A DNA stretch of 64,000 nt from Lingula anatina (taxonomy: Eukaryota; Animalia; Brachiopoda): positions 28,544,503 through 28,608,502 of the forward strand of contig CM120640.1 of NCBI GenBank assembly GCA_051362555.1, read 5' to 3'. The position numbers and the translations under genes are program-made. Positions 1 through 50,437 of the stretch are shown in pieces (position 1 is the first letter of the stretch; every line of letters starts with the position of its first letter). A model generated the notes under the pieces. The model searched no databases, had not been told where the DNA came from, and was given only the letters and a program-made list of their open reading frames with translations.

Positions 1-1300
1 CAAGCTCAAGTGCCGATATGGCTGAGATTCCAACGGGAAGAGGGGCACTGAACGCGCTTGAACCGGGCCCGCGTGCGAAGTGCTCGTAGTAGGCCGGTCT
101 CAGGGACGACAGGGCCGAAGAGGCCGGTAAAACTGTCGAAACAACACCCCCACTGACCGATGTACCGCTGGCCAGCGGCGATCTGCCGTTATTCGGAGTA
201 GACTTATTGTTTCCGATTAAACTGTCAATGGTGAAACCTCCCCCGGGTTTCGTGGCTATAGACTTTGAAGAAGTTGCTGATGAAGAGTTGGATGAGGATG
301 AGGATAACATTGTCCCTGTTGAGACGGTTGTTTTTAAAGGAAACGAGCCCTCGGAAATGGTATTTTGCAGACTCTGTAACGCCGGGCTATTGAGTCCTAA
401 ACTCATGGAACTGAGAGCTGAAGCCCGGGCGATATCTTGCGGTGGTAGTAAAGACACGGGGGGAGGGAGAGGTGCCATAAAGTGCGCATACGGCCCGGGG
501 AGCCCCTGGTGATGGGGGTGGAGATGCGCAGGAAGGTTGTGGTGGGAATGCATCCCCAAGAACGCCTGGCCGTATGGATGGTGGGTGGGCAGGAACGCCG
601 TGGGTTGGTGCATGAGATCGGGAGTGATGCGTTTGTAGCGTTTTCTTCGCCTCAGAAAACTGCCGTTGTCAAACATATCCTCGCTGGCGGGGTCTAGGGT
701 CCAGTAATTGCCCTTTCCAGGGTTGCCCGGCTCGCGGGGTATCTTAAGGAAGCAGTCATTTAGAGAGAGGTTGTGTCTGATGCTGTTTTGCCAGGCAGGG
801 AAACGTTCTCTATAATAGGGAAACCTGTTCATGATAAACTCACAGATTCCGCTGAGAGTGAGCCTCTTCCTGGGAGACTGAAGCACTGCCATGGTTATAA
901 GAGCTATGTAAGAATATGGCGGCTTCACAAGATTATTCTTTTTGTCTCTCCCGTTCTCTGCAGACTCGTTTTTGGTGTCTGCATCATCATCATCGTCGGC
1001 GCCGTCCGCATGACAATCTGAATCATTCTCCATCCCTTCTAACTCCTTGTCGGTACAGTCATCATAATCTTTATAGTCAATATCGTGATAGTCACTGTGA
1101 GCAAAATCTTCCTCTCCATCAGATCCACCGTAGGATTCCCCGGCAGAGACTCCGGGTGATACCTTACTAGTGGTCATGCTTTCCTGTAGACACTGCTGTG
1201 GGGAGGGTGCTAGGCGTTGTTTAGGCGAGTTCTGACGCAAGATTTCAGCGTCTTCGGCTTTCTGGTGTGGAGTCCCCGTGATTTCCATGTCGCAACGCAT
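1..1300 (-). CDS. foxD: Forkhead box D transcription factor, single exon, 3' end outside the window
   Basis: Manual minus-strand translation from ATG 1300 (alternative ATG 1288) is open to the window edge. It gives an acidic N-terminus, then a FoxD-type forkhead domain ([99 protein letters not shown], ~925-630), a His/Pro-rich region and an eh1/Groucho-binding motif FTIDSLIG (235-212). It is absent from the ORF track because no stop lies in the window. Confidence 0.96.
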
Positions 1301-1575
1301 CGCCAGCGTTCGATCTAGACGTCAGATCCCCTGTATAGATCCTAGGGAAAATCTGCCAGGCACACTACACACGCTGAAACACCTTTCTATCAGTGTATAG
1401 ATACGCGAACACGGTACTGTATCGACACACTGTTGTGATAATTCTCGCTGATAAGATCAGGATCGATTCCCAAGAGCGCTCTGCAGCTTTGGATCCTCTG
1501 TTCCTGAGTAATTAGCGAGGTGTTAGCTCGGAAAATTTATCGGAGATGATCCCAGTCCCTGTGAGATCCGAGCAC

Positions 1576-21400: not shown

Positions 21401-24400
21401 AAAATAAATTAAAACAGATTTGTCACAAAAATGTTTCTTCATACTTATATATGGGAAAGCACATGGGCATAAGTGGGGGTGAGGGCAACAGGGGAAACAC
21501 ACATATACACAGTATGTGCATGTATGACCTTATAGCACCACTGCTACAACTGACACCCTAAAAGTACTGGGCACCTGTTGTTCATAAATACCCCCTTAAT
21601 GGGGTGGGTGGACACGGTCTGGTGATTGATGGCTAGCCAATGGGCACAGGTGGAGAGTCCAAGGTCAACTTGGAGAGTCGGGTCTGAAACCCCCGTCTGC
21701 ACTAAAACCCAGGGGTTTCCTGAAACACTGATGACTTTATTTGGTGCTAAAAAGTGGTATTGGAACTTATATACATGTATATTTCAAGGGTATTTTTTAG
21801 TTTGAAAGAATACAAAATGATGATAAGTTTGCCTAGAACAAGAATAATGTCGATCACAACAGGAAAATTCAAATTTTCTTATCAAATATGCAATTCAATA
21901 ACAAATCTTTTTAAAGATTTAAAAATCCTGAATACTTACTGGGCCCAGCCAGTATATTGACATTTAAATGCCCATGTCTTTACCCAAAAAATTCTTGCCT
22001 GCAGACAATTTCAAAATTCTTTCGTTTGTAATAAACAACAGAAAAAATATTATTTTTAAAATTGCACTAAATATTGGTTCTAGGGTTTCCCTCCGGAAAT
22101 ACTGGGGTTAGAATATGGGACAAATATTGCCTGTACAAAGTACTGGGAAATAGGACTATAGTTTATTTTGAACTACACATGCCATTTCTGTCACCCTGGC
22201 TAAACATATATGAATTCGGCAAGTGTAACATTAAATTCATTCTTATGTCAACCCCTAGGGTTTTTGGTTTTTTTATCACTCCATTTTGGTTATTTCTACA
22301 TTCATTTTTACTATTATAACATGTTTTGCAATAAAACTTTGCTGAACAAACTCAAAATTCACTGCTTTGCATTCTTGTTCATTACCGGATGTACCTATTT
22401 TGGTAGGAATACCCATTTTGGCATAACATATACACATGTAGCCTTACTTTAATTTTCAATCTAATTCATCATAAATTTGCTATCCCCTCACAATAAAATA
22501 TTCATTCTTGGTGAAGCGCATATTGTTGAAATATCATTTCCCAACACTCTGGGGGTTGCAAGCGATGTAGGTGGTGCAAAATACAAACCAGAACATCTTG
22601 TTTCCATGGTAACCTTTTGTGCAAAGGGTACAAATTGCATTACACGGGCAAACACATGCACATGCCAAAGACTATTTAAGCAAACACTCAATTCCAACTG
22701 ATATTTTGAAAGATGGGCCCATGTTAAAACTAGGGGACCAGTTAAGTCAAGTTTTTGCAATAAATTGCATATTTGTTATTGTAGTCCTCATTGAGACAAT
22801 TACCGTAATTCTAACCATAGCTACACTGGCGGTAGAAAAACAAAAGGTCGCGGTTTGGCCGTTGGGGAAGTTGTACATATCTTTCTACAAATATTGACTC
22901 TGTAAATTTTCTTACAAGATACATCCATTCCTTTCTTAATTATCTTAACGTGTCAAAGCGGTTTTCACTTTGCCAATTTGAGCCTGCATTTTGGTTGGTG
23001 GAGCAGAGGGAAACACACACAGACAGTAATGGCCCAATTAATTATGTTCTATATCTTTCCAATGGTTTCCACATGACAAGTTTGCAGAACCTTCTGTTTT
23101 TTTCCTTTTTAGATTTGATTCCATTTACTATCTGTTTTCTTTACAGGCAAAGGGTGTGAAGTTTAGCTGTTCAGCCAAGTACAATAAAAACATTATACCT
23201 TTTCAAATTTCAAGCTTACAACATCAATCTGAAGACAGCTAAAACTATACCTTCCTAGGAATGTGAAGGGAATTATACTTAATCTTATATTTAAAATTCG
23301 TAAATGAAGCTTACAAACAAAATATATAAAAACTAAAATTACATGTCTCTCATCATATTATTATTTGGATTCAGTAATATATATTACAAATTTTCAACAT
23401 AACAAAAAATCGTTTACAACAAACATAGCTGAAGAGTCCTCACTAATCTATTTCATATTTCCACAACTAGTTGTGCTAAATCCATTTGTTTCTAGCAAAA
23501 ATGTGGAAACTGTATCATTCCCATTTCTCTGTTGGAGAACACGATTTAGGTGGAGGAGATTATGCTAGTAATTGTTTGACATCCCTGCGCCATGTGCTAC
23601 ACACGGTCGCTGCATGTGTGGTTTGCAGAAAATCATCCCCGAACAATGATTAAAGAATTGGTTCACTAATCAAATACCAATTTAACACAATGCCAATCTG
23701 TAGAATAGCAGAAAGAAAGAAAATCTTTATCATTACAGTATTTAAACAGAAAAGTACATTTTTTAAACATCTCGAAGTAGTGTACTTATCTGCCTTCATT
23801 TGTTAATAACACATTTTGGAATTTAGAAAGGAATTTTCTTAACCATATGTATTGTTTTAACTTTTGTATAAACAATCTGCAGTGTATAAAACCTTAACAC
23901 AATCCATTTATTCAGCCATATATTTGGTTTGTGGGGACCAGAAAATATGGGAGAACATACCCATACCAAATAGATTTCATTTTTTCACAATTTTTAATTG
24001 TAAGTGTCCATCTCTATTATTCTATTCTTACTTTGCAGATTAAGGTTTTTCTATCATGTCCTAATAACATAACCTTATCCATTTCTGTTTTAAAAATGCC
24101 AAAATGCCATTGGTTACTTATCTGTTTATTCTGGCTTATAAACAACAAAATAAAATCATGAAATCACACTGTTATACCTTCTTAGTTAGTTCAAAAACCT
24201 TTCAAATGTTCCTCATTGTGCAATCATGCTGGTGATAAAATTTTGGCAGCATATTGCTGACACTCCATCAATCTCCATTAGATAGCACTTCATTCTCTTC
24301 CATGTATATATCATTGTTAACCTCAATTTAATTAGTGAAAAAAATATACCAAGGCAATATCTTCCAGAGTGCTCAATATAGGTGTAAATTTCTTACATCC

Positions 24401-27400
24401 AAGAATTAATGGCTCATTTTGGAAGTTCAATTAAAATACACATTTCTGGTAGTAGGGAGGCTTAGACAAAAGTTTTACAGGTATGATAATTTACTTGCTT
24501 GTTATTAACACAGTCCTCACCTAATATTTGGCACCTGGACTAAACTGTCACCAAATATCAGCCCCTCCTTCAGAAGAAATTTATTCTTTGGAGTCGCGGT
24601 TCTGTCCGAGCACTTACAGAGAGGGAGGCTTGGTAAGGCTGGTCCACTCTCCTGCAACCACACACAGTTGCATAAGGACCACTATCAAAACATTACACTG
24701 TTTTGTTATTGCTTCCTTCAAATGTGATTTCCATAATATTTTTTCTACTTGTCAAATCTAATTTCATCCAAATTCTCCAGTGGTGCCCCCAGGTGCTGGT
24801 ATCAATAAATTGCAAGATGGTAAAAATGTGGCCAATCGCACAAATTGATGTCAAAACAGCTCTATGTGGGAGGCGGCTCTGGGCCGCATTTAAGGGTGTG
24901 TTGAGGAATATTAGCCCCAGCTAACATAGCACAAGTTTTGACTCTTCTCAGAATAGAGTATATTGACTTTGTACTGCGAGCTGCATAACCGTACTGGCTG
25001 CCAGATACAAATTACCTTCTCTCATATGTGCCTTATTATTTATCATGAACTTGGTATTTAATAGCATGTATATAATGAATGTATTAATGTACAAGTTATG
25101 TCTAATACATACACACATAAATAGAGATACAGCTGAACGTATATCTGTAACATCACCTAGTCAAACAGAGCAGTTTTGTATCTAGTAAACGTACAGAAGC
25201 ACTGTAACAAACCTGCAGAAATGCCTGCAATCAAATATTATCAATAAATTCATTATTTTAGAGATCAGAATTTGTTAAGGTACATAGTTTCCACTTGTGC
25301 TTGCTGTAAAAATAACGTGGGATAGTTTTCAAGGAAGTCCAAGAGGACAACAGTTGACAAATACTACATAAAACCAATTGTGATAGCACATGAAATGTTT
25401 CCACTTGTTGACTCTACCTCATAAATTCATTCAAGTCAATGTTACAAAACAAATTTTCCAGATCAAATAATTTAAAATTTCTCTCATTTGGACCATAATT
25501 CTTTATCATCCCTCACCACAATAAAGGCATAACCTCAAATTTTATTTTTTTTAAATAATTAGATTCGTAACATGGCATATTTGAGTAATATACAGGGGGT
25601 GTATTGTAGTCATTGTTAGTCTGAAATGCTGTATTTTGACACACATAATCCTGCCAAAATAAAATGAGCCTATCAAGCATAAGCCTAGCAAAGTAAAATG
25701 AGCATTTCAAAGCTACTTGTATTGTTATGTTTACATTAGAATATAGAAAAAATCATAAAATGCTAATAAATATACAATAAAAGTAAATAAGATAAATTTT
25801 TTTGTCATTTTTTTTCTTTTTCTACAAATTATGTTATTTCACTAAAACAAAAATCAGCTGGAGAAACCAAAACAAATAACCCAATACCTTCATCCGTAGT
25901 ATATCCATTGTATTCCCCCCAGGGTTGGTCACTTTCTCCCAAAGGACTGTGTCCATGAACTCATTCAGTGCTGCCTTAGTGAGGCTTCCCTCAACCTCAA
26001 ATGTCACTGTTGTCACAGTCTGAATTGAAATGAAAAAACATGCTTTTTAAACAAAGAACCACTGGTCCCAGTCAACCACTACGAACATGAAGGATGAGAG
26101 TTTTTCATCCACAATGACTGCTAGTGATGCAAAATCAATTTGGAAATTTAAGTCACCATTTTCACATTTGACCTTGTATATTTTTTTAAACAATATGGTG
26201 CAGGCTTTGGTAGTTATAATAATAATTTGTTCAAGATAAGAAAAAATCAAAGTCTACCTGGTATATTTTGTCTTTATATTTTTATCAATACTTTCATGTA
26301 GAGAGTTTTTTCTTCTGTACCTTAATTTATACTTTTTTGTGTTGTTTGATTCATTAATTATTTTGTTGCAAAATTTAGTACTGACATTAATCATAATGTA
26401 AAACAGAAATAGTAAGATATGAAATTTAAAATCAATTTTATGAGCATTGTCCTTATAATATTTATAAATATAAATGTAAAGAAACAGAGAATAAAATTTA
26501 CAAGACAATCTAATGTGCTGAACTTGGAAATAAAATAAAAATTTTCTCACAGGACTCCATCTTAAATATCAATTCTAACCTTTCAGTCTCTATAATACTC
26601 TGAACAATAGAAAATGTGTAAAAATAATTCTTAATAACCAAGCTTTGTTTATGGTAGCTTATGTGCATGGTTTGTCACTCAATTTCCTTTTGTTTTTTTT
26701 GAGAGAGGGGACTTCACCATGCCCTTTAATAAGTAGATTCCACTTTACCATTGCCTAAAGGTACTTGTGACCTTACTAAGAAATGTTCCTAGTTTAAAGC
26801 AAAAACAGTGATGAAAGCATCTGAAAATCAATGTCAAAATCACTTTATACGTGGTAAATAAATTCTGGAAAAGAAACATCACCTTTGCGCCACATCTGAT
26901 TACATAGGACTGAGCTTTCCATTTCTGAAACTATTTTTAGATCTAAAAAAATAAATTGATGTTTTTACTTATTTGCAGTAATATGGTTAAAAACAGGCAT
27001 TATTGCAAAAGTGGCACAAATTTCACAAAAATAAATACAGCGATCAAAGAAATCATGAACTCACAAATATGATCATAATAGGCAGGGTAAGTGAGTTAGT
27101 AGGTGCTATGCAGTACATAGCATGAGAATTTCAGTAATTCATTTTTTAAAAATAAAAAATGTAGCCATCTACTTGATATGTCTGTCATACTGTTTGTTTC
27201 TGTGTATAAAAACCAAGGGAACCTCTTCAACCTCATGCCTTTTATGCCACTGTGTTTTAACTAAAAATGCTGGTGTCAACCAAGCATATATCCTGTGCCA
27301 CTTACCTTGTCTAAATGATGTGATCCACCAGCAGTGTTCTGATTCCCCTTGAAGTTAAATATCTCATCAACACTGTAACATTAGAACAAGTTAAGTTCTC

Positions 27401-30400
27401 TCAAAATAACATTTTCCAAAAGTAAAGCATAAAAAGAATAATTAAAAATATTATAATTAGATTTTTTAAAATAAATTTTTTAGTTTTCCCTACAGTAAGT
27501 GAAAAACTAAAAATGTGGGAGTACATGAAATACACAATAAAGACTTTTGTTATTTAGATTATTTAGAAAGAAAACTTAAATGAAAGGGAAAATTGTAAAA
27601 TAAATTATTCCAGTATGATTTGCTGACCATGATGCCATTCTTAAAAAGTCTACTTTTCTAATAACATGCATGTATATAATGACTAGTAATTTAAGTGAAA
27701 ATTCTCCATGATTCCTAATATGTATTTTTTCAAGTACTATAGCTTAATATGTGTCATTCACTAACCTACTCCTGCTTCTGCCATCATAGGCATTAAGATC
27801 CAGGATCTGAGGAAGATCAACTCTGCAAAACAGAAAATATTAATAGTTCAATTCCATCAAAACTATACATTTTCTAATCGACTTTCATATACAATCCACA
27901 TGTATCTTAGCATCAAGACAATTAGCTTTTCCTAAGTTTTAATTTCTTAAATAAATCCAAATTTCATTTTTCGAACTTTGCCACAAGATGCAAATCTTTG
28001 AGAGCCCAGATATCATTCTTCCCAGTACCGTGCTGATTGTGCTTGATGTGATGAGATTTGAGAGCATGCTGCTTTAACTTACTGTGCTTGTTGAGTTTCC
28101 ATCCTTCTAGCAACACTGTTTATAGAGCTGTAAATAAAGAATTCAAATTTAGTGAAAAAAGTACTTACATAACAAAATGGGCAATGGCTGTTATAAATGT
28201 GAAATACATCACAAGGTCTTTAAACATACATGCACATCACAACTTCATTTAGAAAGTATAATGACCCTATCAGGAAAGTGATAGGATCAGGATATACAAT
28301 GCCTCTGCCATAAATTTAAAATATTGTCCTTCAATGCTATCTAAAATATCAGTATAATACAGATTATTTTATATAACCATCATATGTTTACAGCTGAATG
28401 TCTTTAGTCTAGTATATTACGAGCTGCAGCTGCACTAAGCAAAACAGAATGCTACATAATATCACTTATGACAGACAGCTCACATGTTTCACTTCACCAT
28501 GACTAAACAAAGTATTGTCTGTTCCCAGCTGTTATTAAACTGAAAAATCCGATGTTTAAATACCCACGCCACTTTCAAACACTTAGACTTTTTCAGTGAA
28601 ACAAAGATGTAAATGACATTAATGCATATGTCACGTTGTACCATAGGATAAAAAATTTTATTTATGCACATATTACACTCGTCAGTGACATACAAATATA
28701 TGAAACAGTAAAATGTCTAAATATGTGAGAAGAGCAATATCATTAAATAACCATACCCACTTGTGTCACATTACCTTAGCTGAGCTCTCAAGTCATTCAG
28801 TTCCTCATCATTGACTAAATCTGTTTTGTTTATTATAATCACATCTGCCAGTGCAACTTGACTGAAAGGCAAATGTTTCTTTTCAAATGTCAGTAATAAA
28901 TGAGCCTTCACCAATAGCAACTAATGTTATACTCAATTTTTAAAATAGAAATTTAATGTAAATGTAAAATATGCATGCACCCATATATCTGGATTTATAA
29001 AATTTAAGTCAAAATGTCAAAAATAACAAATGCATACTAGTTGATGGATCTTATTCTTCACATGATTTCTTCAAAAGCTGGTATTCTTCATTCAAGAAAA
29101 AGGTGTGTAAGCTCACCTAACTGCCTCATTGATGACACCATCTGGTTTCTGTTCCAACAGGTGCTGAAAGATACAGTAATGCTGGTAGATTAAAATACAT
29201 GTACTCACAGGAACATCCAAGAGGACAAAGAGAGACATCCCGTGATCAGTGACTTAAAAATAAAATTCAATATATAGTATGCGATATACGTGATTTTTAC
29301 TTTAAATTGTACTTACCTGCAAACAGAACTTTGCATCCACAACTGTCACAATTCCTAAAAAAATAAAATCCATCTTAAAAACAAACCCCCCTTTAAAGTA
29401 ACAAACAATATACAAGCTTGAACAAAAAATGTAAAATGCTCAGTTTTGCCTTGTGTTCGTGTGATACTGTTTTTCTTTCATGTTTTTCTCTCTGGTATGG
29501 ATAAGAGATTATTGACATATAAAAATACTTACCATCTAGATAAATATCACTACACAACTCTTCATCTATCCAAAACATTGATGCTATAGGACCTATGAAA
29601 AAACAGAAAAAAAGCACCATCATCTTTTGGAAAAATTTGCCAACTTCTGTATTCAAAATGTTCATGCACGTTAAAAAAAACCATTTAAATAATCACAAAC
29701 CACATAAGTATAAATACCTGGATCAGCTAGACCCGTTGTTTCCAATAAAATGTAATCAAATTTTCCTTTCTTTTTCATCAAATTTTCAATGGCCTGGACC
29801 CCATTGTCTCTGCAAGGAAAAATGAATATATTCATTTTCTATTCATAAAGAGATTAGACATACAAGAGATTTTCATTTCAACAACCACTGGTTATAGAAA
29901 AATAATACAAAGTCTTCAATTTTCATTCAGATCTTGTTCACATAAAGCCCGTAGAATCTGAACAAATTTTATTTTAAATTTTTAAATGAACAACAGCTTT
30001 TTCCAACTGAATAACAATATGAATGTCAGCTTTTGAAAGAGCAAAAAGCTCATGAAATGCAGTATGTATGCTTTTAAATTAGTTTTCTCTTCCTGCATTT
30101 AGAAAAATGTTGACCTGGAATTCAGAATCCATTATACATTGCTGTCAGTTTGTTTCAAATACTGAACTACATAACTCTAAAAAGGAACAGGTTTCAGGGA
30201 GGAGTAGCAGTATCCAACTGCAGATATTCCCTTCAAACCTAGTGCTTTCTTTTGTGTGTTTGTGTGTGTTTATTCAACTTACTTAACTGAACAACAGAGA
30301 CAACCATTCCTCAGCTCTAACCATTCTTCATACAGTTCTCCAGACTGCCCTATGGACATTGACTTTTCTATTGCACTGCCTGACAGCACAAACCATGAAA

Positions 30401-31251
30401 AGTAAATTATAATGCAATCAATTGTGTTACACTTACTTTGTGATCCAACTTTTCTCTGAGAGACACTTGTGTCATTTCAATATTGAACTGGTGAAAGATA
30501 TAGCTTTAGGTTAGTGAGCCCATTTTACAACTTTGTCTGATGAATACATGGACTTTTCATAAATTTCTCCCCAAATATGACAAGAAATATTTAACATTAC
30601 CTTAAAAAAACCTTCAACTGCTTTTAAACTACTAGTATTTGCCCTGTATTAATCTTACCTTCCCCAAACTCATTAAGGATGACAGCAATTCGCTTGCCAT
30701 GTTGCTCAGTCAGGATGTAATTCAACAAGGTTGTTTTGCCTGCACCTGAAATAAATACAACAGTATGGAGTTTAAAAAAAAGAAAAAAAAAAAAAACAAA
30801 GCATACAGTGTCTGTGAATAAATACATTTTGAAAAACCATCCCTGTAAAAAGGCAAATAAATGAACAGTAGGTAAACTGAACTTTTTCATGTTACAATGT
30901 GAAGGGTTTCTTTTCTCTTGTGGCTCACATTAATAAATAAATTAATTCATTTTTATTAATTTAATTTCTACAAAAGGTACAGAATAATTATGATTGGCAG
31001 GTTAAAGAAACTGATACAAACATCAACATTCTTGAAAATAGTAAGTTTTTGGTCACAACAAAACATATGCCGCAGAGGACGTAGTTGCTGTAGCAAACAA
31101 ACATAAACTGAGTAAACTTTTGACCAGGTCAGTCAGCCTTGGCTGTGTAGGAATGCATACCTAAGAAACCAGTTATGACGGTGACAGGGACTTTCGTTAT
31201 CTCAGCTGGTACCAACTCTGGAATACACTCCTCGTCTTCGGAACCAGACAT
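18473..31251 (-). CDS. CBWD: COBW domain-containing protein / Zn-regulated GTPase metalloprotein activator (COG0523 G3E GTPase), 14 coding exons, 369 aa
   Basis: Phase-compatible GT-AG exons: 31251-31161, 30745-30659, 30379-30283, 29809-29718, 29592-29533, 29354-29317, 29163-29117, 28861-28775, 28127-28083, 27822-27766, 27372-27306, 26019-25888, 19037-18911, 18555-18473 (1110 nt). Motifs: N-terminal CIPELVP, Walker A GFLGAGKTT, NEFGE, zinc-binding [17 protein letters not shown], and CobW_C (ILRMKG...RLVFIGKNL). Confidence 0.96.
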
Positions 31252-36950: not shown

Positions 36951-39900
36951 TCAACATTCCAAGAATCCTTTCTCTCTTGAAAATAAAAGCCGCCAGATTT
37001 GTGGCGGTGAATCCATTACAAGATAAGTTATTACTTCCCCAGGAGGAGATGAAGAGTTCAGGACAGTGTTATCGAATGCTATTCCTTCCCACTGCTTGCT
37101 GGCCGTGGGGAGTTTGTATTCTCGCATCTCAGAGGTTGCCAAGTCCCACGAGCGCAGGACACGAAGGTTGTCCAATAGAGCAAACAAGGAGTTATTGAAA
37201 ACTGTCAGCGACCCAATCTTGGTTTCTACTTTAATAGCCTGCAAAGGCACTGGCACTAGTTTCTCAGATGATGTCTCCGACTTCAGAATGAAGACCTGGA
37301 TAAAGTCAGTCGACGAGCCGAAGAATGTGCCAGAGGTATTGTCTTTTTGGGGATTGCCGTACCAGGACATTTCGCTGTAGGTTATGCCTTCGAAGACTGC
37401 TTTCTCGCCTGTGGAATTATATACGTTTATTATTATCATCTACACACGTAATCGGACAATACAAGCAGTGCGTTACCAAAAGTCAAATGAATGATTCAGA
37501 AAAAGATAACTTAACACCAATCAACTTTGAATAAACATTGAAATTGAATTGAGTGTTAAATTTCATAAAAAAAGAGCCATTTCCAGCGTTGATATTCAGT
37601 ATCGACAAAAATGATGGAAAATCAACCGTTTGTGGTCATTATCTACACAAGTAATTGGACAAAACAACCAAGAGTGCGTTATCAAGAGTCAAACGAATGA
37701 TTCAGAAAAGGAAAACGTTACACCAAACAACTTTGAATAAACATTTAAATTAAATTGAATTGGCTGTTGTAACTCGTAAAAAGAGCCATTTCTAGCATTT
37801 ATATTCAGTATCGACCTAAAAACTGATTCAGCGCTATGGCATCGACAACCGTTTGATCCTGCAGGTTGTAGAGCAGTGCCTGGTTGGTTGGGTACTCCGT
37901 GGCGATGTAGATCATATCCGGTGCCGCTGAACTACCGAAGGTCAACCCTTCAATATCATATCTTTCTTTTTCTGAAAAGAGCACGATCACAATTTTGGAA
38001 AATAAAAACAGAAAAGAAAGTTAAGAGTAGTTAATAGGGAGAGTACTAAATGGAGCTCAATTTCGACAAAACAAAGCCGTTGACAAGTCAATTAATAACC
38101 ACTTAAATAGAAATCCAATTCAATGACTGTCACCTTTCTGATTTTTGTAACAGCTTTTTCTTCACTTCCTTACCGCTGATCTGTATGTATTCCTCAACTT
38201 TTTCACTCTGGAGGTGGATTTTGGCCAAAATATTCCCAGAACATGTCCACAGGTACAGACCAGAGTGATCCAGCAACGCATCACTCGGCTCAAAAAACGG
38301 GGGCAGGCTTATGTTCAGTCTGTGACAACGGTGAGACTCGTGAAGACCAAAATGCAAACCTGAAAAATAATATTGGGAATTGCATTAATTATTTTCATAC
38401 AATTATCTTTGTGATTGTAAATGGCAGCTATAGCAAATAAAAAGTTATGCCCTTCTATAATGTTAAAGAAATTAAAAACCAAAAGAAAGGAAACCCCAGT
38501 TTATACAGGGCTTTGTTAACCGACAATTGCTTTCAAGCTAATTTCTTTTGCAGCTTATTATATGTAAGTAACTGAATGAAAATGTACTTGATTTTGGCGG
38601 TGAAATTTCAGGAATATCTTCTTCTTTGAACAAAGCGGAATATTTTCTAAAGTGAAGAGAAAAGGTGGACAACATGGCCACACACAGGAACACGGTCAGA
38701 ACGGCAGGTCCAATGACGTCATGGTAGCCCGACTTGGAGTGATGTCTGATCCTGTACAGTCTCAGCTAAGGTTGGAAAACATAGCTCATTATAATATGGG
38801 TCATTTCAAAAACAATGGCTTAATTTTTCATAGTTTAAAAAAAATTGAATATCAGAAGTTTTGTAAAATTGAACTTCCTGAAATGTTTAATCAATTAAAC
38901 ATTTAAAATCCAAAGAAAACAAAGTTAATTTATTAATCATGTTATTGACTGACTGTTTTACTGTTCAATCGATCAATCACTTGATTAATTGGCTGAATTA
39001 TCGATCGATTGACCGATTGATCTACCGCTCAGATCGTTCGTGTCTTTACGTTTGTTCATATACAGTTTTCTTAATTTGCAACGGGTTACTTACATAGAAC
39101 ATGACGGCGGCGTATATCAGTATTAGTATGGCCAGGGGCATGAACAGCAGACCTACCACCCGAGCGTCTCTGTCCCCAAGGGACACCAGGGCACCACTGA
39201 GAGTTACCTGCAATACAGAGTGGACGTCAGAGTGTTTTCTTTGGCTGGGGTGTAAAAACAACAGCATACTCTATACAAGAAGGCAAAAACGTGGAAATAA
39301 TATTCATTCAAAACGAATAATTGTAAGTCATTTTTTTCTTTTTTTTTTTTTTTTTTTTGTATTATTATGTTGAAGATACAGTATTTAAGAATGTTGAGAA
39401 CATTAGAGAGCTTTAACAACTGAAGGAGTAAGGAAAAACCAAGCAAGAGGAACAGGTTCAATTTACCAATAATAGCGAAGACGTTAGCCATTGAATGAAG
39501 GTTCTTTCATTTGCAAAATATGTTTTTGGTTCTACTTTCAGACGTTTCATTGCTTTTGGTTGCTCTTTCTGGTCATCTGGATTTGTCTTGTGATGATTCT
39601 TCGAGAACTTGGGCAGAATGAAGTTTCTGTATCTCAGACTTTCTGTACAAAATGAGACACTTTATTTAATGAAGCTATATAATAAGAGTGAGTGGACAGA
39701 AAGACTGTTGTATACAGATACGTAAGTGACATACATTATTCCCCCAGAGAAAACTGCGCAGTGACGCATATCGCCTTATCCACACACCCAATGAAAACAA
39801 ATATAAAGGTGTCTATTTCCCTCAGTTTACACTCGACCCAACACGTCGTTAATATGCAATCCTGCTCCCAGCTATGGCTATACAGTGCATTTTGCGGTAA

Positions 39901-42900
39901 CCATCTTCGTTACCTTCACTACAGTATCAAAAGTCAACAGCACTATACTCACAATGGTTAAAAAATAAAATCGGAAAAAAAATTATGATGATCGAGGCTT
40001 CTTAAAATGACTAGGAATAGACAATAGACAATGTATTTAGATCGTGGATGAATAAAGCAAAACTAATATTGTACATTAAAGGAATTCATTGTTGAGCGAG
40101 AAAAAATGATATTTGAATCTACCGGGGTAGTATGTTCATGTAGGTCTACTTAATAGTAACCCGATGTGTTTGCAAAATGTCAAAAATAAAGCGAAATTTT
40201 CTTACTCTGTTCCTCCTGGATGTCGGGAATTTTCCCACTTTCAATTGTCATGGTGATGCTCTCACGACTGGATCCGGCGTAATTCAAAGTGCCGGAGGAA
40301 TGATCGCCAGCTGTGACATAGGCTGAATCCTCATCCTGGAAGAGGTAATCATTTTTGCCACGGTCTGAAATAACCTAAGGAAAAAACGTAAATTGCATGC
40401 AACTAAATACGTCCCAGCAGAGACAGTAAGTATTGTATTGCTTTATTCGACTTGCCTTCACTATCAGTGAGTTGAAAAAGACATAAATTCACATGAATAT
40501 ACCACTTCCTTCTAACTGAATTTCCTCAACAGTACATTTTCAAATGATACATTTTCAAATAAAAACAACATCGTTAACGCAAACATAATGTGGCAAATTA
40601 ACATTAAAATCTTTTTAAAAGGTCTTACATAACACTTCTACACACCTTGTTATAAACACGGTTATTCTTCTGAATTACATCATCATTGTACCAATATGGA
40701 AATTCCTTGACTTTGAGAGGAAAAAAGCTAGCAGCCGAGTGTTGAAACTTGGAAAACTTTGGCACAGGGCGGATGAATGGAGATTCCACTAGGGCATCAA
40801 GCCACTCAGGCGGAGGAATCCTGAGCTTCACTTCGAGGATTGTGTACGGAAACAACCGATAATCTTGGTTCTTGATTATACCTTGAAATAAACATAATGT
40901 ACAGGTCAATGGTGTATTTTAATGAATTTCATTTGACCAGGAATTGGCATTACACCTATAAACTGATGGGCAGTAATGGAATGATAGTCACAGAAAGACT
41001 AATGATAGTTACAATATAAATAAGAGTAGTTGACCTAGTCACAATTTATCAAGAAATGAAAGGTTAAGTTCTAAACCAAGAACCGTTTCCAACCTTCTTC
41101 ATTGCGCTTCCACTCAGACTCGCATCTAAGACGATCCCCCTCGTCTATCATGGTTAAGTCAACATCGATAGTAATCCGTACGTCATTATTGTCTGGTAGC
41201 TGAAATGCCGTCCTCTTATACACTGTCCTCACTAGGGGCTGCAGGTTTTCTTTGGTTATTTGCCCCTGTATGTCACTAGCCAGTGCTTTCTTTGCTTCCC
41301 GTGGAATAGACTTTGACTCTCCTTAAACGAGAGGGCGGTGTTATTATTATCAATGCCGCAAAATAAATTAAATAAGAAAAAAGATGTTCATCAAAACAGC
41401 ATAACAAAATAGCAAGTAGTCTTCACATTAGTTCTGTTAGTACCGTATCTGTTTGAATTCGTGCCTAGTCTTGAAAAGAGAATCCACACATGGCAGTCTA
41501 CTCTTACCAAGCATATATCCTTTGACGTCATCCTCAGCCAATAGAAAACGTTCTTTAATGCTGTTCTCCCACACCCAGCTTTCATGATGTGTCTTCCTCT
41601 CCACAAACACCTCTGCACCGGGTGGGCCGTCTATTCTTGGACTCTAACAAGAAATACAAAATATTCCACAGGCTTAATTTAAACTTTGTCAAGTAGACAT
41701 TTAGATACAAATGAAAAAAATAACTTTTTCACATAAATGGCACATACAAAAGATATATATATTCAATTAAGTACTAGAAATACGATTGGGACTTACGTTT
41801 TTGCCATGCGGTAGATTGTACCATCGTAATCGAATCAAAAAGGCTCCTTCCTCAAGCTTCACCCGCCTGTGGTAGCAGGCCAAGCTAGGGTTGTCTAAAT
41901 ACACCGATGAGACCCATGTTGTAGATGGTGGAGTACTCTCTAACAGATTTTCGTCTGGAGATATTTTCTGTTTTGCCGGAAATTTGGTCCTGCAACATTT
42001 TATGAATGATCAACAAAAATATAAAAACAAAGCTCTGTGTCATGTCTGGTTGAAGCTGTTTAGTAATCCGCACAAGAAAGCGATCACAAGTTTAGCACTA
42101 CCAAACAGATTATTTAAAGTGGAAGCAATAACAATTAATTTTGATTTGCACTGTTTAGGATTAATTTACAGTTCATTTACAAGATGGCATTACAACAACA
42201 ACAACAACAATAACAATAATAATAATAATAATGCACTTATTGGAATACATGACCTACTTAATAAGCTAAATGGAATGTAACTATTGCCTGGAAGCTTTTA
42301 CGAGAATTCTAGATCAGTTTGCATTCGCTTATTCGTGGCCTGAAGATCATAGCGATCTTCTCTGAGATTTTCTCTTTAAAGAGATAGAGTCTCATCAAAT
42401 CTGATATCATAAAGTTCATTGGAATATTGTATCTGGCCTGATCATTAAGTCGTCTATTGTCAGGGTTACCCCTATTGTGCATGTAGGTAAACAAATATTT
42501 TAAGAAATTTATGAACGGTCCAGAGTCCATGGACTAACAAGTACCAAGTCACACAAAATAAAATTTAATTATTCAACAACTCTTTTTGTTATTCTGACTT
42601 CCAAGCATCTAAAGAAAAACCTCGTCGGTCTTCAATAAAAGTATGTCAAGGGCAAACGACGTCTCTCATCAAAAACCGCCAGAAAAATGCCATTGTATTT
42701 TTAACAGTTCCAGCCAATTTTTGTCTGAGATTGTCTTCGACTCTTTGACTAACACTAAATAACACTATATCCGGTTTACACGTGCGCAAACCACGTGGAG
42801 TGTAGTGTATTACCGATAAAAAGGATATATTATTTATTTATAATTTTCTACTCCCAAGTTTTCTGTAAACCCTTAGATTGGTGCTTCATGATAGGGTTTT

Positions 42901-44332
42901 CTATAACTCATATTTTTATACCCTTTCTCATAAGTGATAACAGACGCACCACAATTTAATAAATTATTGCTCGTTTTCCTTCCAATGCCTGGTTCACAAG
43001 CAAAGTTCATTTATGAGACACATTACTTGTACAATTTTCTCACAAAGAACTATATAAACTATATCACCCGTATACAGAAACATATCTACTAGTAACTGCA
43101 TAAAATTATTCCCCGCATAAACAACTATAAAAAAAAAGAACTCTTACGCAAAACCATTAATATATAGGGCTCGTATGAAAATTGGGTCAGTGATATTTGA
43201 CACACAACATTGTTGATATAAAACCCATCAGATCGCAAACGTCACCTCATACAGGGGCAGATTTAGGCCGTCTTCTGGGTCTTCTGTAAGACGGTCAGAT
43301 TTTTAAGTTAACATTGACGGGTATCTAATTTTTTCTGTCGGAAGACGGTCAAAAATGGAGGATGGATCAACAAAGATAATTTGGAAGACTGTCAGAAAAT
43401 ATCTCTGGATCTGCCCCTGTCATACTACACTTCTGTAAATGCATATGTTGCAGGCCAGATCAGAATCCAGTCCAGGGGCGGTATTCTCGAACGTTTTCGA
43501 CGTCGAAATTTTTTCGTCTTCGATTCGTTAAAAAATTCGTGAACGATTTCGATGAAAAAATTTTCGATAGCTTCCAGAATACCGATTTTTCGGATTCGAT
43601 TAGGATTCGATGAAAAATTCGTTTTCGATAGCTTCGAGAATACCGCCCCAGTTCTGAACTGACCTACAACAATCAAAGATAGCCAAAATCTCGCGACTTA
43701 GCGTAAAATCAGGCGTTTTTTTTTTGCGGGATGTGAAAGAGAGTGTGTCTAGAAATAATGACAGACTATAGTGAGTGCAGTGCAGCGACGAGTAAAAGGT
43801 GATAAAATTTATCCACGGATATTTTTTTGTGTTTTTTTCTGATTATTTTCTCTTTCTACGCGCTTTTCTTTTTTTTTTTTTAACGACATTCCCAATCCAC
43901 ACAGTTTCACCTTTAAGGGGGGAATGTAGGTTGGAGATTTTCTCTTTAAATAAAGGTCTTAGTTTTTTTTTTTTTTTTATTCCTGTCACATTCATTTAAT
44001 GTATCTTTGAAACATCTAATTATGCTTGAAACACATCTCCAACTTCATCGTGTGACTTGGATATTTGGGGACAAAAACACCATTTTTAGCCGTCTGATTT
44101 TCTCAGGCACCTGGACAGCTATAAATGCTTTTAATGGTATTATAACACTTGAACAAAGTACTACAAAAGTGAGACAGGGATTTTTCTTTAGAGACTTATT
44201 GATGATTTTATCTATAAAAAATGTGAAATAACATCAAAATATTAAGGAATTTTCACTTTCAAATTCAATAAATTGGAGAAGAGAGGATCAATCAAAATTT
44301 TTAAAAAGGCACTTGTAGCATGGAGATTTAAC

Positions 44333-44377
<45 letters not shown>

Positions 44378-47300
44378 TGTATTTATTTGCAACTTAAAAA
44401 GTTGGATTTTACAATAAAAATTAATAGTGGTGAAATGCACGATCTTAAAATAACCTTTTAAGTGTTAAAATGATGCGATACACATTAAAAGTTCATAAAA
44501 GCCTCAGTTCTTAAAATTTGATAAAGCCCATGGGATAAAAGTTTTGGATGATCGTACAGTCCTCAGTTTTGGCACAGTGTACTTATAAACCCGGTGCAAA
44601 GTGTTGGAACTTTCATTTATCTCTGGTAGCAAATGATGGATTTTGTGTCCTTCGGAGTACATGTTATGCAATAATGTTTTAGATAGTCCATCTCTTCTAC
44701 AAGCAAGAGTGATAAGTTTACACGTTTCAAGTGCCCCATCATAGGGCTGCTCTGGGAATATAATCTTACATGCTCTAATCTGGATGGATTCATTTTTATC
44801 AACTTGTTGTTGTGTGAGACCTGGTTGCCACACCTGACATGCATATTCTAATGTAGGTCTGACTACTGATGTGTAAAAGCTTACAAGTTCATTGGTTGGA
44901 ATACCCGCTCTTTTCAAAAGCTTAAGATTGTGTAGCCTTTTACTTGCTTTCTTTACAAATATCACAGATGTGACCTTCCCAGCTCATATCACTACTGATC
45001 CTAACCCCTAAGAAGACAGCAGACCCCACTTTCTCAATCCTTTGATTCTCTACTAGTAAGGGTGTAGTTTTGTGTCCATTTTTGGAGAAATCAAATATGA
45101 TCTCTTTGGTCTTGGTAGTATTTATTGTTAGTTTATTAGCAGAGAGTGAGTTCTGTTGTTGCATCAGGGAGATTGTCCTGCAGTTCGGTATTCCCGTAGC
45201 TTAGAATTGTGGTGTCATCTACATATTTGAATGTGTCACATTTGGTGCTCAGATCATTAATCATAATAACAAATAAAACTGGACCAAGTTTTGTGCCTTG
45301 TGGTACACCAGCATTAATGCATAGCCAGTCTGATTTCACACTACCTATCTTCACACTTTGTTTCCTCTCAGTTAGGAAGCTGTAAATCCAGTTTGAAATA
45401 ATTCCAGGGATACCTAATTCAGACAGTTTTTGGTTAAGCAGGGTGTGGTCTATTCTATCGAATCCTTTAGTATAATCGACCAAAAGCATTCTGGCATATT
45501 GTCCTAGAGTGTCAGTCTGCCTTGCAATAAGGTCTATAGCTTCGATCAGTGCGTATGTCGTACAGCTCCCTTTCATGCTGCCGAACTGCCTAAGGTCAAT
45601 CTTATTGGTCACAATGTCCCAAATCCATTTAACAATAAAACCCTCCAATAACTTAGAGAGCACATGGTAAGGGATATAAGAAAGGCATATACGGATTTTT
45701 AAAAAAGAATATTGGGTGTAAAAAAGAGCACTAGTGATAACTTAGTTTATTGTACATAATTTAGTATATTATGAAAAGCGGGAGATACCCACTTCCAATA
45801 AGTATGAAGCTACGATTTTTTAATATTGCTTTAAATCCCCTCTTCGAAAAATTGTAAATAGCGTGCTATAAAGATCTACTCAAGAAAAATTTTGCTTGGG
45901 TAATTTGAGTACGGATTAACTGGAGAAACTTGGCTTGTCATTAATTTTTCACGAAAATATGTCAGATAACTCTGTACTGTCCTTGACAGAGTAAAGATTG
46001 AAAGATAATTTCAGACAAACATTGACCGAGAAAATATCCACAAGGAGTAAAGGGCTATTGTACCAACATGTGGTTGAAAATTTTACACTGTAATTCTATT
46101 TAAATAAGCTAATTTCACATAAATGTAAGGAATTAATTGTCAAATTTTGACTTTCATCACATAATCTAGCTATAGAAACGGCAAGGTAAACAGGCACAAA
46201 TAAAAATTAAGAACCTGTAAACTATGTATTTTAGATGACATCGAGGATGAATTTCATTTTATTCTTTTAAGAATTTTAAAATGTTTTTGCTTCAGAACGA
46301 TTAGACAGAAATACATCAAAAATTTTATTAAACAAACAAAGTGTTTTCAAGCTAATTAAATTGTTATCCATTAACTACGTTTACAATTAAACTACTTATG
46401 AAAGTACTTAAAATGTTCTTAAAGCACTCTCCTGTCAAAAGACAATAGGTCGCGCCGTGCTTTATTTCGTGTAAAGTCACGTCATCCACGAATGCGTTCC
46501 ACGCACCAGTGCACAGGGTGCTTTAAGCCAGATAAAGCACTCGGCGCTGAGCTTTACGCGAAATAGAGCAGATAATTGTCTCGGCTTCGCCTCGCCAATT
46601 ATCTGCTCTATTTCGCGTAAAGTTCAGCGCCTCGTACTTTATCTATACCATCAGAGCTTGGACATGATGACGTTGTTATGTCCAAGATCAGAGCTAGGAT
46701 TAACGTCAGCCTGAAGAGTTTTTATCATAACTACTAGTAATTTTTTTTTTACTTTATATTTTTATTACATTTCATTCTGATGAGCCATAGGGCGCAAGGG
46801 TTTAATTAATTGAATTGAACTGAATTTCACAAATAACATGGACCTCGTATGGAATGATTAACAGTACTCTCAAGTCATTCGAATGCAGTGTTTTATACAA
46901 CTTGGGATAACCATAATTAAATGCTAGTTAAAGAATTGAATAGACTGGAATGGCTTTACACATGTTCACGAGGACTTAGACCCCTCGGGTAAGACCCCAT
47001 TTCCATAGATTTTAGATCGATCTATCCCTGTGGGGAGTGTCACTAGATTACTGTCAGCTTAGCCGGCTTAAGCGTCTGTCCCGCCTACTGAAAGCTGTAA
47101 GGGGGTAATTAACGATGGTGCGCGCTCGGCTGACTGCAATATTTAGCGTGAACCCCCAGGGAGTTAGGTCGATCTAAATCTTAATCCCTGGATCGATCTA
47201 AATCTCTGGGAATACACCCTAAGAGATTAGAATGAGTATGAACTTTTATCAGGAGTCAGAAAAGTCATCTTACAGGTGGACAATGCAGCTCAGTTAAATT

Positions 47301-48489
47301 TGACAGCTTAACATGCTGCTTGTCTCTCTCTCCTCGGGTGGCACGATTGTCGTCATCGGACCACGTGACCACGTAGCTCATTAACTCCCAGGCTGAGCAA
47401 AAAGGACGTTTTTTAAGCCAAAAATTTACAAAACGAGCTTTTAATTTGTGTATTTGGCTAACGATATCGTTAGTTGGGCATGTTCTCTGAAGAATATGTT
47501 CCGTTCAGGCCATTAGTTAGTTAGAGCCGTGTTTCAAGCATAATTAGATGTTTTAAAGATACGCATGTACATTAAATGAATGTGACAGGAATAAAAAAGC
47601 TAAGACCTTTAATTTAAGAGAAAATCTCCAACCTACCGGGTACATTCCCCCCTTAACAGCAATTTTAAGTCGTGTACAACAATAATTATTTTCGTAAACC
47701 TTGTGACAATTACATTATTTACAGAAAATCAGTAAATCAAAATGCTTTAAAAGATTATATAAATCAAATCTTTGAAGTTAACAAAAAAAAAACTTACCTT
47801 TTTTTGTCCTTGAACACATAAACTGGCAAGTGTTTTATCAAAGCTGCCTTGACAGCAAACGTATCTTCCGCCTTCACCCAATACTTCACGCTTTTCCTTT
47901 CAAACACATCACTTTCGCCATTTTCTTCCGAGTCTGAGCCCTTGGATCCCTCGCACTCTGCTTGGACACTTCTAATGGTACCGTAAACAGCGCTTACGTG
48001 AAACAGAAAGGCCTCTAGTTCGTTGAAGGCCCTCCCAAAAAACTGCTCGTGGTTCTGGGCAAAATACCAGTTGCTGACGACCCCGGTTAGCTTGTCGTGT
48101 TGTTCGACTATCATACGGAACCCCTCACCATTCAGCAAAGTGAATTTGGCCAATTCTTTAAGCTCTTCAACAAAATTGTCAGTGAGCTCAGTCAATCTCT
48201 GAATCGGCGAGAATCCGTTTTCGCGTTTACTCTTCGAGCTTTGACATTTTTGCTGTAAATCATCTTCTTGGTTCTGTAATCTCTGCAGTGTTATTCGAAG
48301 TTCCTTGATTTTGACGGAGATGAATTGTTTGGTTCTTCCTAACTCGTCAATGAGAATTTGGACAAATTCTCCTTCGCTGTCATTTCCACTGGATCGCTGT
48401 ATGAAACTTTTTAAAGTGTCGTACTGCAGACTTTGGTATCCGTGCTTGGATTCTAGACAAAAGCGGTTAAATTGTTCCTCGTATTTCAT
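36951..48489 (-). CDS. VTC4: VTC4-like polyphosphate polymerase (SPX - VTC catalytic domain - DUF202 3TM - C-terminal beta-propeller), 12 coding exons, ~973 aa
   Basis: Phase-compatible GT-AG exons: 48489-47798, 41989-41797, 41643-41508, 41321-41094, 40881-40646, 40374-40206, 39642-39467, 39207-39094, 38765-38588, 38359-38174, 37971-37816, 37408-36951 (2922 nt, no internal stop). Motifs colinear with yeast Vtc4: MKY..QYDTLK, LAKFTLLN.EGF...HDK, FERKSVKYWV, KHLPVYVF, SSVYLDN, IRLRWY, VFVERKTHHESW, SIKERF, PLVRTVYKRTAFQLP..DVRITID, FPYTILEVKL, PPEWL, PVPKFSKFQH, KVEPKTYFANERTFIQWL, YHDVIGPAVL. Confidence 0.93.
37435..37815. repeat. ~200-bp tandem duplication forming VTC4 intron 11
   Basis: Two diverged units (~37435-37635 and ~37638-37815) share blocks such as GAATGATTCAGAAAA, CAACTTTGAATAAACATT, AAGAGCCATTT and ATATTCAGTATCGAC. 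Confidence 0.8.
43252..43419. mobile_element. MITE (hAT5-like), copy 1
   Basis: TIRs CAGGGGCAGAT...ATCTGCCCCTG; 5-bp TSD TCATA; near-identical copy at 50103-50269. Confidence 0.85.
43476..43648. mobile_element. PIF/Harbinger-like MITE
   Basis: TIRs GGGCGGTATTCTCGAA...TTCGAGAATACCGCCC; 3-bp TSD CAG; interior rich in TTCG/TCGA. Confidence 0.8.
44333..45663 (-). mobile_element. 5'-truncated LINE (CR1/L2-group) reverse transcriptase remnant in VTC4 intron 1
   Basis: ORFs 45663-45136 (LLVDYTKGFD, GVPQGTKLGPVLF, YVDD), 45164-44940 and 44965-44504 (RPTLEYACQVW) are separated by two frameshifts. They are followed by a short 3'UTR, AATAAA and a (TTA)n tail at ~44333-44377. Confidence 0.9.
46419..46651. 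repeat. ~230-bp palindromic dispersed repeat (intact copy 2)
   Basis: Hairpin with ~50-bp arms (46530-46644) around the loop TCTCGGCTTCGCCTCGC, plus a short IR TTAAAGCAC/GTGCTTTAA. Inverted relative to copy 1. Confidence 0.85.
46993..47219. mobile_element. Degenerate MITE candidate
   Basis: Imperfect IRs TTCCATAGATTTTAGATCGATC / GATCGATCTAAATCTCTGGGAA with TAA on both flanks. Confidence 0.4.
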
Positions 48490-49975: not shown

Positions 49976-50437
49976 TGTAACCGGAGTCCCTGTATCTAGT
50001 TTTAATGATCGACTGTTTAGATAGGATACAGTTATTTACGCTCACTAATAGTTTACGGCACGCAGGAATCCGTGTGATTCCCTATAAAAACTGGGCCTCT
50101 AACAGGGGCGGATTTAGGCCGTCTTCTGGGTCTTCCGGAAGACGGTCAGATTTCCAAGTTAACATTGATGGGTATCTAATTATTTCTGTCGGAAGACGGT
50201 CAAAAATGAAGGATGAATCAACAAAGATATTTTGGAAGACTGTCAGAAAATATCTTTGGGTCCCCCCTGTCTAAAGTAGAAAGAGGGAGACCCCGGGAGA
50301 TCGTCGTGACTGTCCCTGTCTGCGTGCCAGCCTGTAGTCCGTGTGGGAAGAATAAACATCTTCATGGACTGTAACTGAAGTTGTTCTGAGTTTTAAGCCG
50401 CCGTTCTCTTAAAAATAAGTAACCAACCAAGGTTACA
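49976..50437 (+). mobile_element. Probable solo LTR interrupted by a MITE
   Basis: Termini TGTAACC...GGTTACA; TATAAAA at ~50083 and AATAAA at 50351; ~290 bp once the MITE is removed. TSD not clean. Confidence 0.55.
50103..50269. mobile_element. MITE (hAT5-like), copy 2
   Basis: Near-identical to 43252-43419; 5-bp TSD TCTAA. Confidence 0.85.

What the first reader, a model, noticed from the sequence alone, without database searches (positions are those of the whole stretch)
48091..48489. SPX domain has lost most of its inositol-pyrophosphate-binding lysines
Seen: the canonical helix NYTGFxKIIKKHDK reads NGEGFRMIVEQHDK (K to M, K to E, K to Q; only the last K is kept). The N-terminal YxxLK is retained and MKF is MKY. 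Established: these lysines form the basic surface through which InsP7/InsP8 activate VTC. Inference: the enzyme may be uncoupled from PP-InsP phosphate sensing, being either constitutive or regulated another way.
Basis: partly seen in the sequence, partly recalled or inferred. Interest (0 to 1): 0.7.

Follow-up and report, generated by a model that had tools for sequence, protein, structure and literature searches.

The report
Brachiopod polyphosphate polymerase with disabled sensor
The phosphate-shelled brachiopod Lingula has an intact gene for the yeast-type enzyme that makes polyphosphate, which a review says animals lack, and its phosphate-status sensor has lost three key lysines that two worm copies keep, so the enzyme likely works without the usual signal.

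Summary
48091-48489 (- strand) encodes residues 1-133 of a 12-exon, 973-aa VTC4 gene (SPX, catalytic tunnel, three membrane helices, beta-propeller), 16 residues from the RefSeq Lingula anatina protein and next to animal cobW and FoxD genes. The register is secure: yeast K129, K132, K133 read M126, E129, Q130; Y22, K26, K136 are kept; Y19 and G4 also changed. The SPX fold is intact in the model (pLDDT 93), and all nine catalytic positions checked are kept. Two Owenia (annelid) orthologues keep the whole pocket, so the loss is derived on the Lingula line. In yeast, K129A (with Vtc3 K126A) gives full ligand-independent activity, but triple mutants lose stimulated output, so 'always on' is likely, not shown. 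SPX decay itself recurs in protist VTC4s (at least 4 changes on my tree). The surprise is the host: a review says animals lack Vtc4, and lingulid phosphate granules were proposed to be polyphosphate with no enzyme known. The scan found the Owenia gene before; no paper was found. Expression is barely shown (one read pair).

The parts
47798..48489 (-). Exon 1 of VTC4-like gene: SPX domain (aa 1-180), linker and first strand of the catalytic domain (K202)
48478..48489 (-). SPX N-terminus MKYE (canonical MKFG); G4E adds a negative charge
48409..48432 (-). S20 (yeast Y19, changed), Y23 and K27 (yeast Y22, K26, kept)
48091..48132 (-). Ligand helix: N120 kept, M126 (yeast K129), E129 (K132), Q130 (K133), K133 (K136, kept)
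   Evidence: yeast numbering from PMC9911596 section 8
41990..47797 (-). Intron 1 (5808 bp, GT-AG), holding a broken LINE-type reverse transcriptase fragment
40646..41989 (-). Exons 2-5 (41989-41797, 41643-41508, 41321-41094, 40881-40646): VTC catalytic tunnel domain with R284, R286, K312, Y375, R377, E433, K435, K461
40206..40374 (-). Exon 6: low-confidence linker between catalytic and membrane domains
38588..39642 (-). Exons 7-9 (39642-39467, 39207-39094, 38765-38588): DUF202 / three membrane helices
36951..38359 (-). Exons 10-12 (38359-38174, 37971-37816, 37408-36951): SdiA-regulated / phytase-like beta-propeller, predicted on the lumenal side; stop codon ends at 36951

Best explanation
This is the SPX sensor of an intact Lingula VTC4 gene that keeps its catalytic residues but has lost three of five ligand-pocket lysines, so it likely no longer responds to inositol pyrophosphates and likely makes polyphosphate without that signal. 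Shown: intact 12-exon gene, substitutions and their register, kept catalytic residues, intact pocket in both annelid orthologues. Predicted: the SPX bundle still folds. Inferred from yeast: the tunnel domain would transfer the gamma-phosphate of ATP to a growing chain and the membrane helices would pass it into an organelle; the SPX brake, normally released by InsP8, would be off or weak because two of the four positions whose mutation activates yeast VTC (Y19 and K129) are changed here. Output would then be set by where and when the gene is expressed and by ATP, not by cytosolic phosphate status.
For: Gene: 12 exons, all 11 introns GT-AG, no stop, 16 differences from XP_013413499 and none in exon 1. 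Constraint: of the 40 variants shown (112 found) in DNA run X9, 11 are exonic, 9 synonymous; 0 of the 12 indels shown (22 found) are exonic although 1138 of 2651 bases are exon. Catalysis: 9 of 9 positions kept; closer to yeast Vtc4 (E 8e-72) than Vtc3 (E 4e-30). SPX model pLDDT 92.9, Z 17.9, rmsd 2.2 A over 171 residues to 8i6v_E. Changes fall on the pocket face (G4, Y19, K28/K31, three lysines) while buried positions stay. Owenia P0094/P0095 keep MKFG, Y19, Y22, K26 and KIVKKHDK and are sister to Lingula at 99/97. Yeast vtc3 K126A/vtc4 K129A has maximal activity without ligand; Y19F,Y22F is partly active and insensitive (PMC10167327 section 8; also 10.1101/2025.05.30.656997 passages). Trypanosomatid Vtc4 works with no SPX at all (PMC13251457 passages).
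Against: Yeast Vtc4 triple mutants of either cluster reduce InsP6-stimulated synthesis (PMC9911596 section 8), so loss of the pocket may lower output. The yeast brake is an SPX-SPX contact between Vtc2/3 and Vtc4; no such partner is known here, so the activating mutants may not transfer; they were also made in both subunits at once. Y23, K27, K133, K2 and R125 remain. Only one RNA read pair was laid on the gene (run X16, exon 4), which could be DNA carry-over. A Vtc1-like channel partner or a second Lingula paralogue was not searched for effectively. The Fisher test is post hoc and marginal.
Confidence: 0.5

Rival explanations
1. The sensor is lost and the subunit has only low activity on its own; regulation sits on another subunit (an unseen Lingula paralogue with an intact SPX, or another partner), as in yeast where only one of the SPX domains senses.
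For: Yeast triple mutants reduce stimulated synthesis, and Vtc3 and Vtc5 SPX domains are not the working sensors (PMC9911596). Owenia has two copies. The word-based search missed Owenia once, so it could miss a Lingula paralogue.
Against: Only one Lingula record appeared in three searches. The two Owenia copies are sister to each other (100/99), an annelid-side duplication. All catalytic positions are kept.
Confidence: 0.25
2. The pocket still binds a ligand through K2, Y23, K27, R32, R125 and K133, with lower affinity or another preference (for example phosphate or nucleotides), shifting the set-point rather than removing control.
For: Two of three phosphate-binding-cluster residues and one surface lysine are kept, and R9 and R32 are basic where Owenia is not.
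Against: E4 and E129 put acidic groups in the pocket segments; net charge -2 against +3 to +6 in four intact homologues.
Confidence: 0.17
3. The gene or its SPX is drifting under relaxed selection and the changes have no function.
For: Lingula has the longer branch (0.64); its SPX is a few points less like outgroups than Owenia's in 6 of 7 comparisons; a LINE fragment sits in intron 1; RNA support is thin.
Against: Intact frame and splice sites, 9 of 11 exonic variants shown are silent, exon 1 identical in protein between two assemblies, confident SPX model. The variant data cover exons 2-7, not the SPX exon.
Confidence: 0.08

Closest known systems
Saccharomyces cerevisiae Vtc4, catalytic subunit of the VTC complex (PDB 8I6V, 7YTJ, 5IIG/5IIQ, 3G3Q)
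   Same: SPX - tunnel domain - three membrane helices in the same order; catalytic residues kept; SPX fold.
   Different: Animal host; three pocket lysines, Y19 and G4 changed; the second InsP6 cleft (K300, R302) reads A331, D333; extra C-terminal propeller; different subfamily in the tree.
Owenia fusiformis VTC4-like proteins CAH1787178.1 and CAH1773898.1 (uncharacterised records)
   Same: Same four-domain design over 99% of the length, 33-34% identity, sister group 99/97.
   Different: Both keep a complete inositol-pyrophosphate pocket.
Hyperactive yeast alleles vtc3 K126A / vtc4 K129A and Y19F,Y22F (PMC10167327)
   Same: Lingula has lost the residues matching K129 and Y19.
   Different: Laboratory single changes in a Vtc3-Vtc4 complex; Lingula has further changes, keeps Y22 and N123, and has no known Vtc3-like partner.
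SPX-less or SPX-degenerate VTC4 of trypanosomatids (PMC13251457), apicomplexans, Fabomonas, Sexangularia
   Same: VTC catalytic domain kept while the sensor pocket is lost.
   Different: Protists; in apicomplexans the SPX is broadly diverged, whereas in Lingula the change is confined to the pocket face.

Membership tests
SPX domain | Three-helix bundle with short N-terminal helices | tested here: met
   Model pLDDT 92.9; top seven matches all SPX proteins, Z 17.9-13.3; Atlas structure TM 0.85 to an XPR1-type SPX
SPX domain | Pfam PF03105 at its gathering score | tested here: not met
   18.9 bits against 27.8; the Owenia copies with intact pockets also fall short (21.1, 22.7), so this does not track the pocket
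Inositol-pyrophosphate-sensing SPX | Phosphate-binding cluster Y22, K26, K133 (yeast Vtc4, PMC9911596) | tested here: not met
   2 of 3 kept: Y23, K27, Q130
Inositol-pyrophosphate-sensing SPX | Lysine surface cluster K129, K132, K136 | tested here: not met
   1 of 3 kept: M126, E129, K133
Inositol-pyrophosphate-sensing SPX | Measured InsP6/7/8 binding | not testable with these tools
   needs ITC, MST or NMR
Vtc4 polyphosphate polymerase | VTC tunnel domain with catalytic residues (R264, R266, E426 from PMC9911596; K200, K281, Y359, R361, K428, K458 recalled) | tested here: met
   PF09359 E 2.7e-61; 9 of 9 kept
Vtc4 polyphosphate polymerase | DUF202 domain with three membrane helices | tested here: met
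   PF02656 E 6.6e-12; helices 590-619, 623-655, 666-694; three hydrophobic stretches
Vtc4 polyphosphate polymerase | Makes polyP from ATP and moves it into an acidic organelle | not testable with these tools
   needs expression and assay
VTC complex | Vtc1 and Vtc2/3 partners forming a five-subunit channel | not tested
   no genome held; searches were limited to proteins near or above the query's length
SdiA-regulated / phytase-like beta-propeller (C-terminal domain) | Sequence or fold match | tested here: inconclusive
   Atlas features 0.94 and structure TM 0.70/0.77 to PF06977 clusters; no Pfam hit in Lingula, weak PF13449 hit in Owenia P0094 (E 2.8e-4); my own model is low-confidence there

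The most novel reading that the evidence does not exclude
Lingula has turned an animal polyphosphate polymerase into an always-on phosphate pump by removing its inositol-pyrophosphate brake, and uses it to fill the calcium-phosphorus granules that feed its apatite shell: a molecular route for phosphate biomineralisation through polyphosphate in an animal.
Probability: 0.2. Interest if true: 0.93.

Novelty: new variant of a known kind. Interest (0 to 1): 0.78.

Why it matters
A 2023 review states that within Opisthokonta Vtc4 occurs only in fungi (PMC10657179 passages), and no animal polyP polymerase was found in my searches. Here one lies in an animal gene neighbourhood, with orthologues in a second phylum. 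A 2013 review proposed that the Ca- and P-rich granules of lingulid brachiopods are calcium-polyphosphate, noted that polyP had not been identified in them and quoted the accumulation mechanism as 'virtually unknown' (PMC3824353 passages). This gene makes that directly testable. The Lingula/Owenia pair is also a natural experiment on SPX control: same design, pocket lost in one and kept in the other, bearing on whether SPX is a brake or an activator of VTC.

Tried and rejected
Contaminating fungal or protist DNA: rejected (cobW exons at 18717-30929 and a FoxD-type gene at 2-1321 in the same window; held by 10 DNA runs of one organism label in 4 studies, 2 of them possible sources; Owenia sister group). 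Register shift: rejected. Pseudogene: rejected as main reading. Plain orthologue of the fungal-type VTC4 of other holozoans: the tree holding Lingula, Owenia, Syssomonas, Corallochytrium, Creolimax and Ichthyophonus together is rejected (p-AU 8.6e-5; the group was chosen after seeing the tree). Origin (retention from a choanozoan ancestor or transfer from a protist) is unresolved: sister to the Choanoeca group at only 91/83, and a grouping with the Gymnodinium group is not rejected (p-AU 0.29). Expression: no RNA holder listed; 0 reads on exon 1 in X12, X15, X18 and 0 on exons 2-7 in X13, X19, from 6-26% of each run, with no control stretch, so no test; DNA run X10 laid nothing. The sensitive HMMER search of cluster representatives never ran, so the range in animals and any Lingula paralogue or Vtc1 stay open. 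The first exon join had wrong boundaries and was redone; one search crashed and was redone. The first careful tree did not finish. Paper search was too loose (11,620 papers; none of the 25 listed holds 'vtc4'). No electrostatic surface could be computed: no model coordinates were returned. No complex prediction was sent.

Full report
What is there. The finding covers codons 1-133 of an ORF on the minus strand, 48489-47798. It is exon 1 of a 12-exon gene ending at 36951; all 11 introns are GT-AG and the 973-codon frame has no stop. The product differs at 16 residues from XP_013413499.1, 'vacuolar transporter chaperone 4-like [Lingula anatina]', and at none in exon 1. The window is therefore Lingula anatina or a very close relative. 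Domains: SPX (Pfam 18.9 bits, under the cut-off), VTC (E 2.7e-61), DUF202 (E 6.6e-12), and a C-terminal domain that resembles SdiA-regulated / phytase-like propellers. Three membrane helices would put the propeller in the lumen; four N-glycosylation sequons lie in or next to it. Neighbours are a cobW gene and a FoxD-type forkhead gene; that FoxD and CBWD are linked in vertebrates is recalled, not checked.

The observation. The alignment with yeast Vtc4 has no gap across the ligand helix. With the yeast numbering of PMC9911596 (passages and section 8 read), the phosphate-binding cluster Y22, K26, K133 reads Y23, K27, Q130 and the lysine surface cluster K129, K132, K136 reads M126, E129, K133. 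Each new codon is one base from lysine. Y19 is also lost (S20), G4 is E, and two lysines of helix 2 found in Owenia (K28 in one copy, K31 in both) are gone. Net charge over the three pocket segments is -2, against +6, +6, +3 and +4 in four intact homologues. Of 185 proteins examined, 138 had an N-terminal part that could be aligned and 128 filled all six columns; 99 keep all six residues, 12 have at most one basic residue at the three changed places, and 3 have none. The set is rich in fungi and unnamed near-duplicates.

The fold and the enzyme. The SPX part folds with pLDDT 92.9 (57-row alignment) and matches SPX domains of Vtc4, XPR1, SPX1 and Gde1 at Z 17.9-13.3, above unrelated bundles at 11.5 or less. 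The whole-protein model matches Vtc4 structures first. Nine of nine catalytic positions are kept (three named in PMC9911596, six recalled). In DNA run X9, 9 of the 11 exonic variants among the 40 shown (112 found) are silent, and none of the 12 indels shown (22 found) is exonic. This covers exons 2-7 only. RNA support is one read pair in exon 4 in run X16.

Relatives. One search gave 81 hits among 2351 candidates with no other named animal, with an alignment of five, gave 121 among 7992 (120 listed) and two Owenia fusiformis proteins on contigs of 41 and 62 Mb that cover 99% of the query. Both Owenia proteins keep the complete pocket; in residues 120-133 they agree with Lingula at every shared position but the three lysines. 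On a tree of 40 rows that I picked from the 185, using 328 columns of the catalytic and membrane domains (SPX left out), Lingula and Owenia form a clade (99/97); its sister is a group with the choanoflagellate Choanoeca flexa (91/83, not firm); fungi, ichthyosporeans, Syssomonas, Corallochytrium and green algae lie in a separate clade (100/99). Scored on 37 of the 40 rows, intact versus degenerate pocket needs at least 4 changes: loss of the pocket recurs in VTC4s, and trypanosomatid Vtc4 has no SPX at all (PMC13251457 passages). The Lingula loss is derived, as its nearest rows are all intact.

How it likely works. In yeast, SPX of Vtc2/3 binds SPX of Vtc4 and inhibits; InsP8 breaks the contact; vtc3 K126A/vtc4 K129A reaches maximal activity without ligand, and Y19F,Y22F or N123A give partial, ligand-insensitive activity (PMC10167327, passages and section 8; the allele is also used as hyperactive in 10.1101/2025.05.30.656997, passages). 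Lingula has changed the residues matching K129 and Y19. Against this, triple mutants of either Vtc4 cluster lower InsP6-stimulated synthesis in the purified complex. I put strongly reduced ligand binding at about 0.8, an active enzyme at about 0.75, and the combined reading (active and signal-independent) at 0.5. These are judgements, not computed values. The link to the shell is inference only: Owenia has the enzyme too, so the enzyme does not need a phosphatic shell (that Owenia has none is my own knowledge); only the pocket loss is peculiar to Lingula so far, with n = 1.

What is in print. PMC10657179 (passages) says Vtc4 is present only in fungi within Opisthokonta; its Figure 1 with InterPro counts was not visible to me. 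PMC3824353 (passages) proposes calcium-polyphosphate granules in lingulids without an enzyme. Searches for Lingula + polyphosphate (9 papers), VTC4 + metazoa + horizontal gene transfer (5), VTC + choanoflagellate + polyphosphate (0), Owenia + polyphosphate (2), VTC4 + brachiopod (0), Lingula + transfer + phosphate + biomineralization (15) and polyphosphate + brachiopod + granules + shell (10) showed no paper on an animal VTC4; of these I saw listings only, except the two reviews named. Subscription papers, Wild et al. 2016, Hothorn et al. 2009 and the Lingula genome paper with its supplements were not seen and may mention the gene. The database record already calls it VTC4-like. Earlier notes of this scan describe the Owenia gene and its propeller; none on Lingula or on the pocket was shown.

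Verdict. Observation confirmed; interpretation partly supported. A new variant of a known kind: an animal, propeller-bearing VTC4 whose sensor pocket has been selectively lost. Interest 0.78, mostly for the host and for the testable link to phosphate shell building.

Noticed in passing
window 36951-38359 (-): C-terminal SdiA-regulated / phytase-like propeller after the third membrane helix, with cysteines at both ends (C719, C973) matched in Owenia; similar tails by eye in P0003 (Choanoeca), P0004, P0005, P0007, P0147, P0196. It may act on or bind polyP in the lumen.
   Followed up: partly
window 44504-45741 (-): Broken LINE-type reverse transcriptase fragment (RVT_1, E 9e-23) inside intron 1.
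   Followed up: partly
window 18717-30929 (-) and 2-1321 (-): cobW/CBWD exons and a FoxD-type gene (best match FoxD3/Genesis) downstream of VTC4; a FoxD-CBWD linkage is recalled from vertebrates.
   Followed up: partly
window about 41540 (-), aa 331-333: The second InsP6 cleft of yeast Vtc4 (K300, R302) reads A331 and D333 here; it is not kept in Owenia either.
   Followed up: partly
window about 43260-43400 and 50110-50250; 43920-44040 and 47530-47660: Two pairs of dispersed repeats seen by eye, probably small mobile elements.
   Followed up: no
P0003, P0108, P0148, P0167, P0186: Holozoa hold two different VTC4 subfamilies: Choanoeca with the animal type; Creolimax, Ichthyophonus, Corallochytrium and Syssomonas with the fungal type.
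   Followed up: partly
P0136, P0138: Mucorales records in which SPX-VTC is joined to biotin carboxylase domains; fusion or gene-model error not checked.
   Followed up: no
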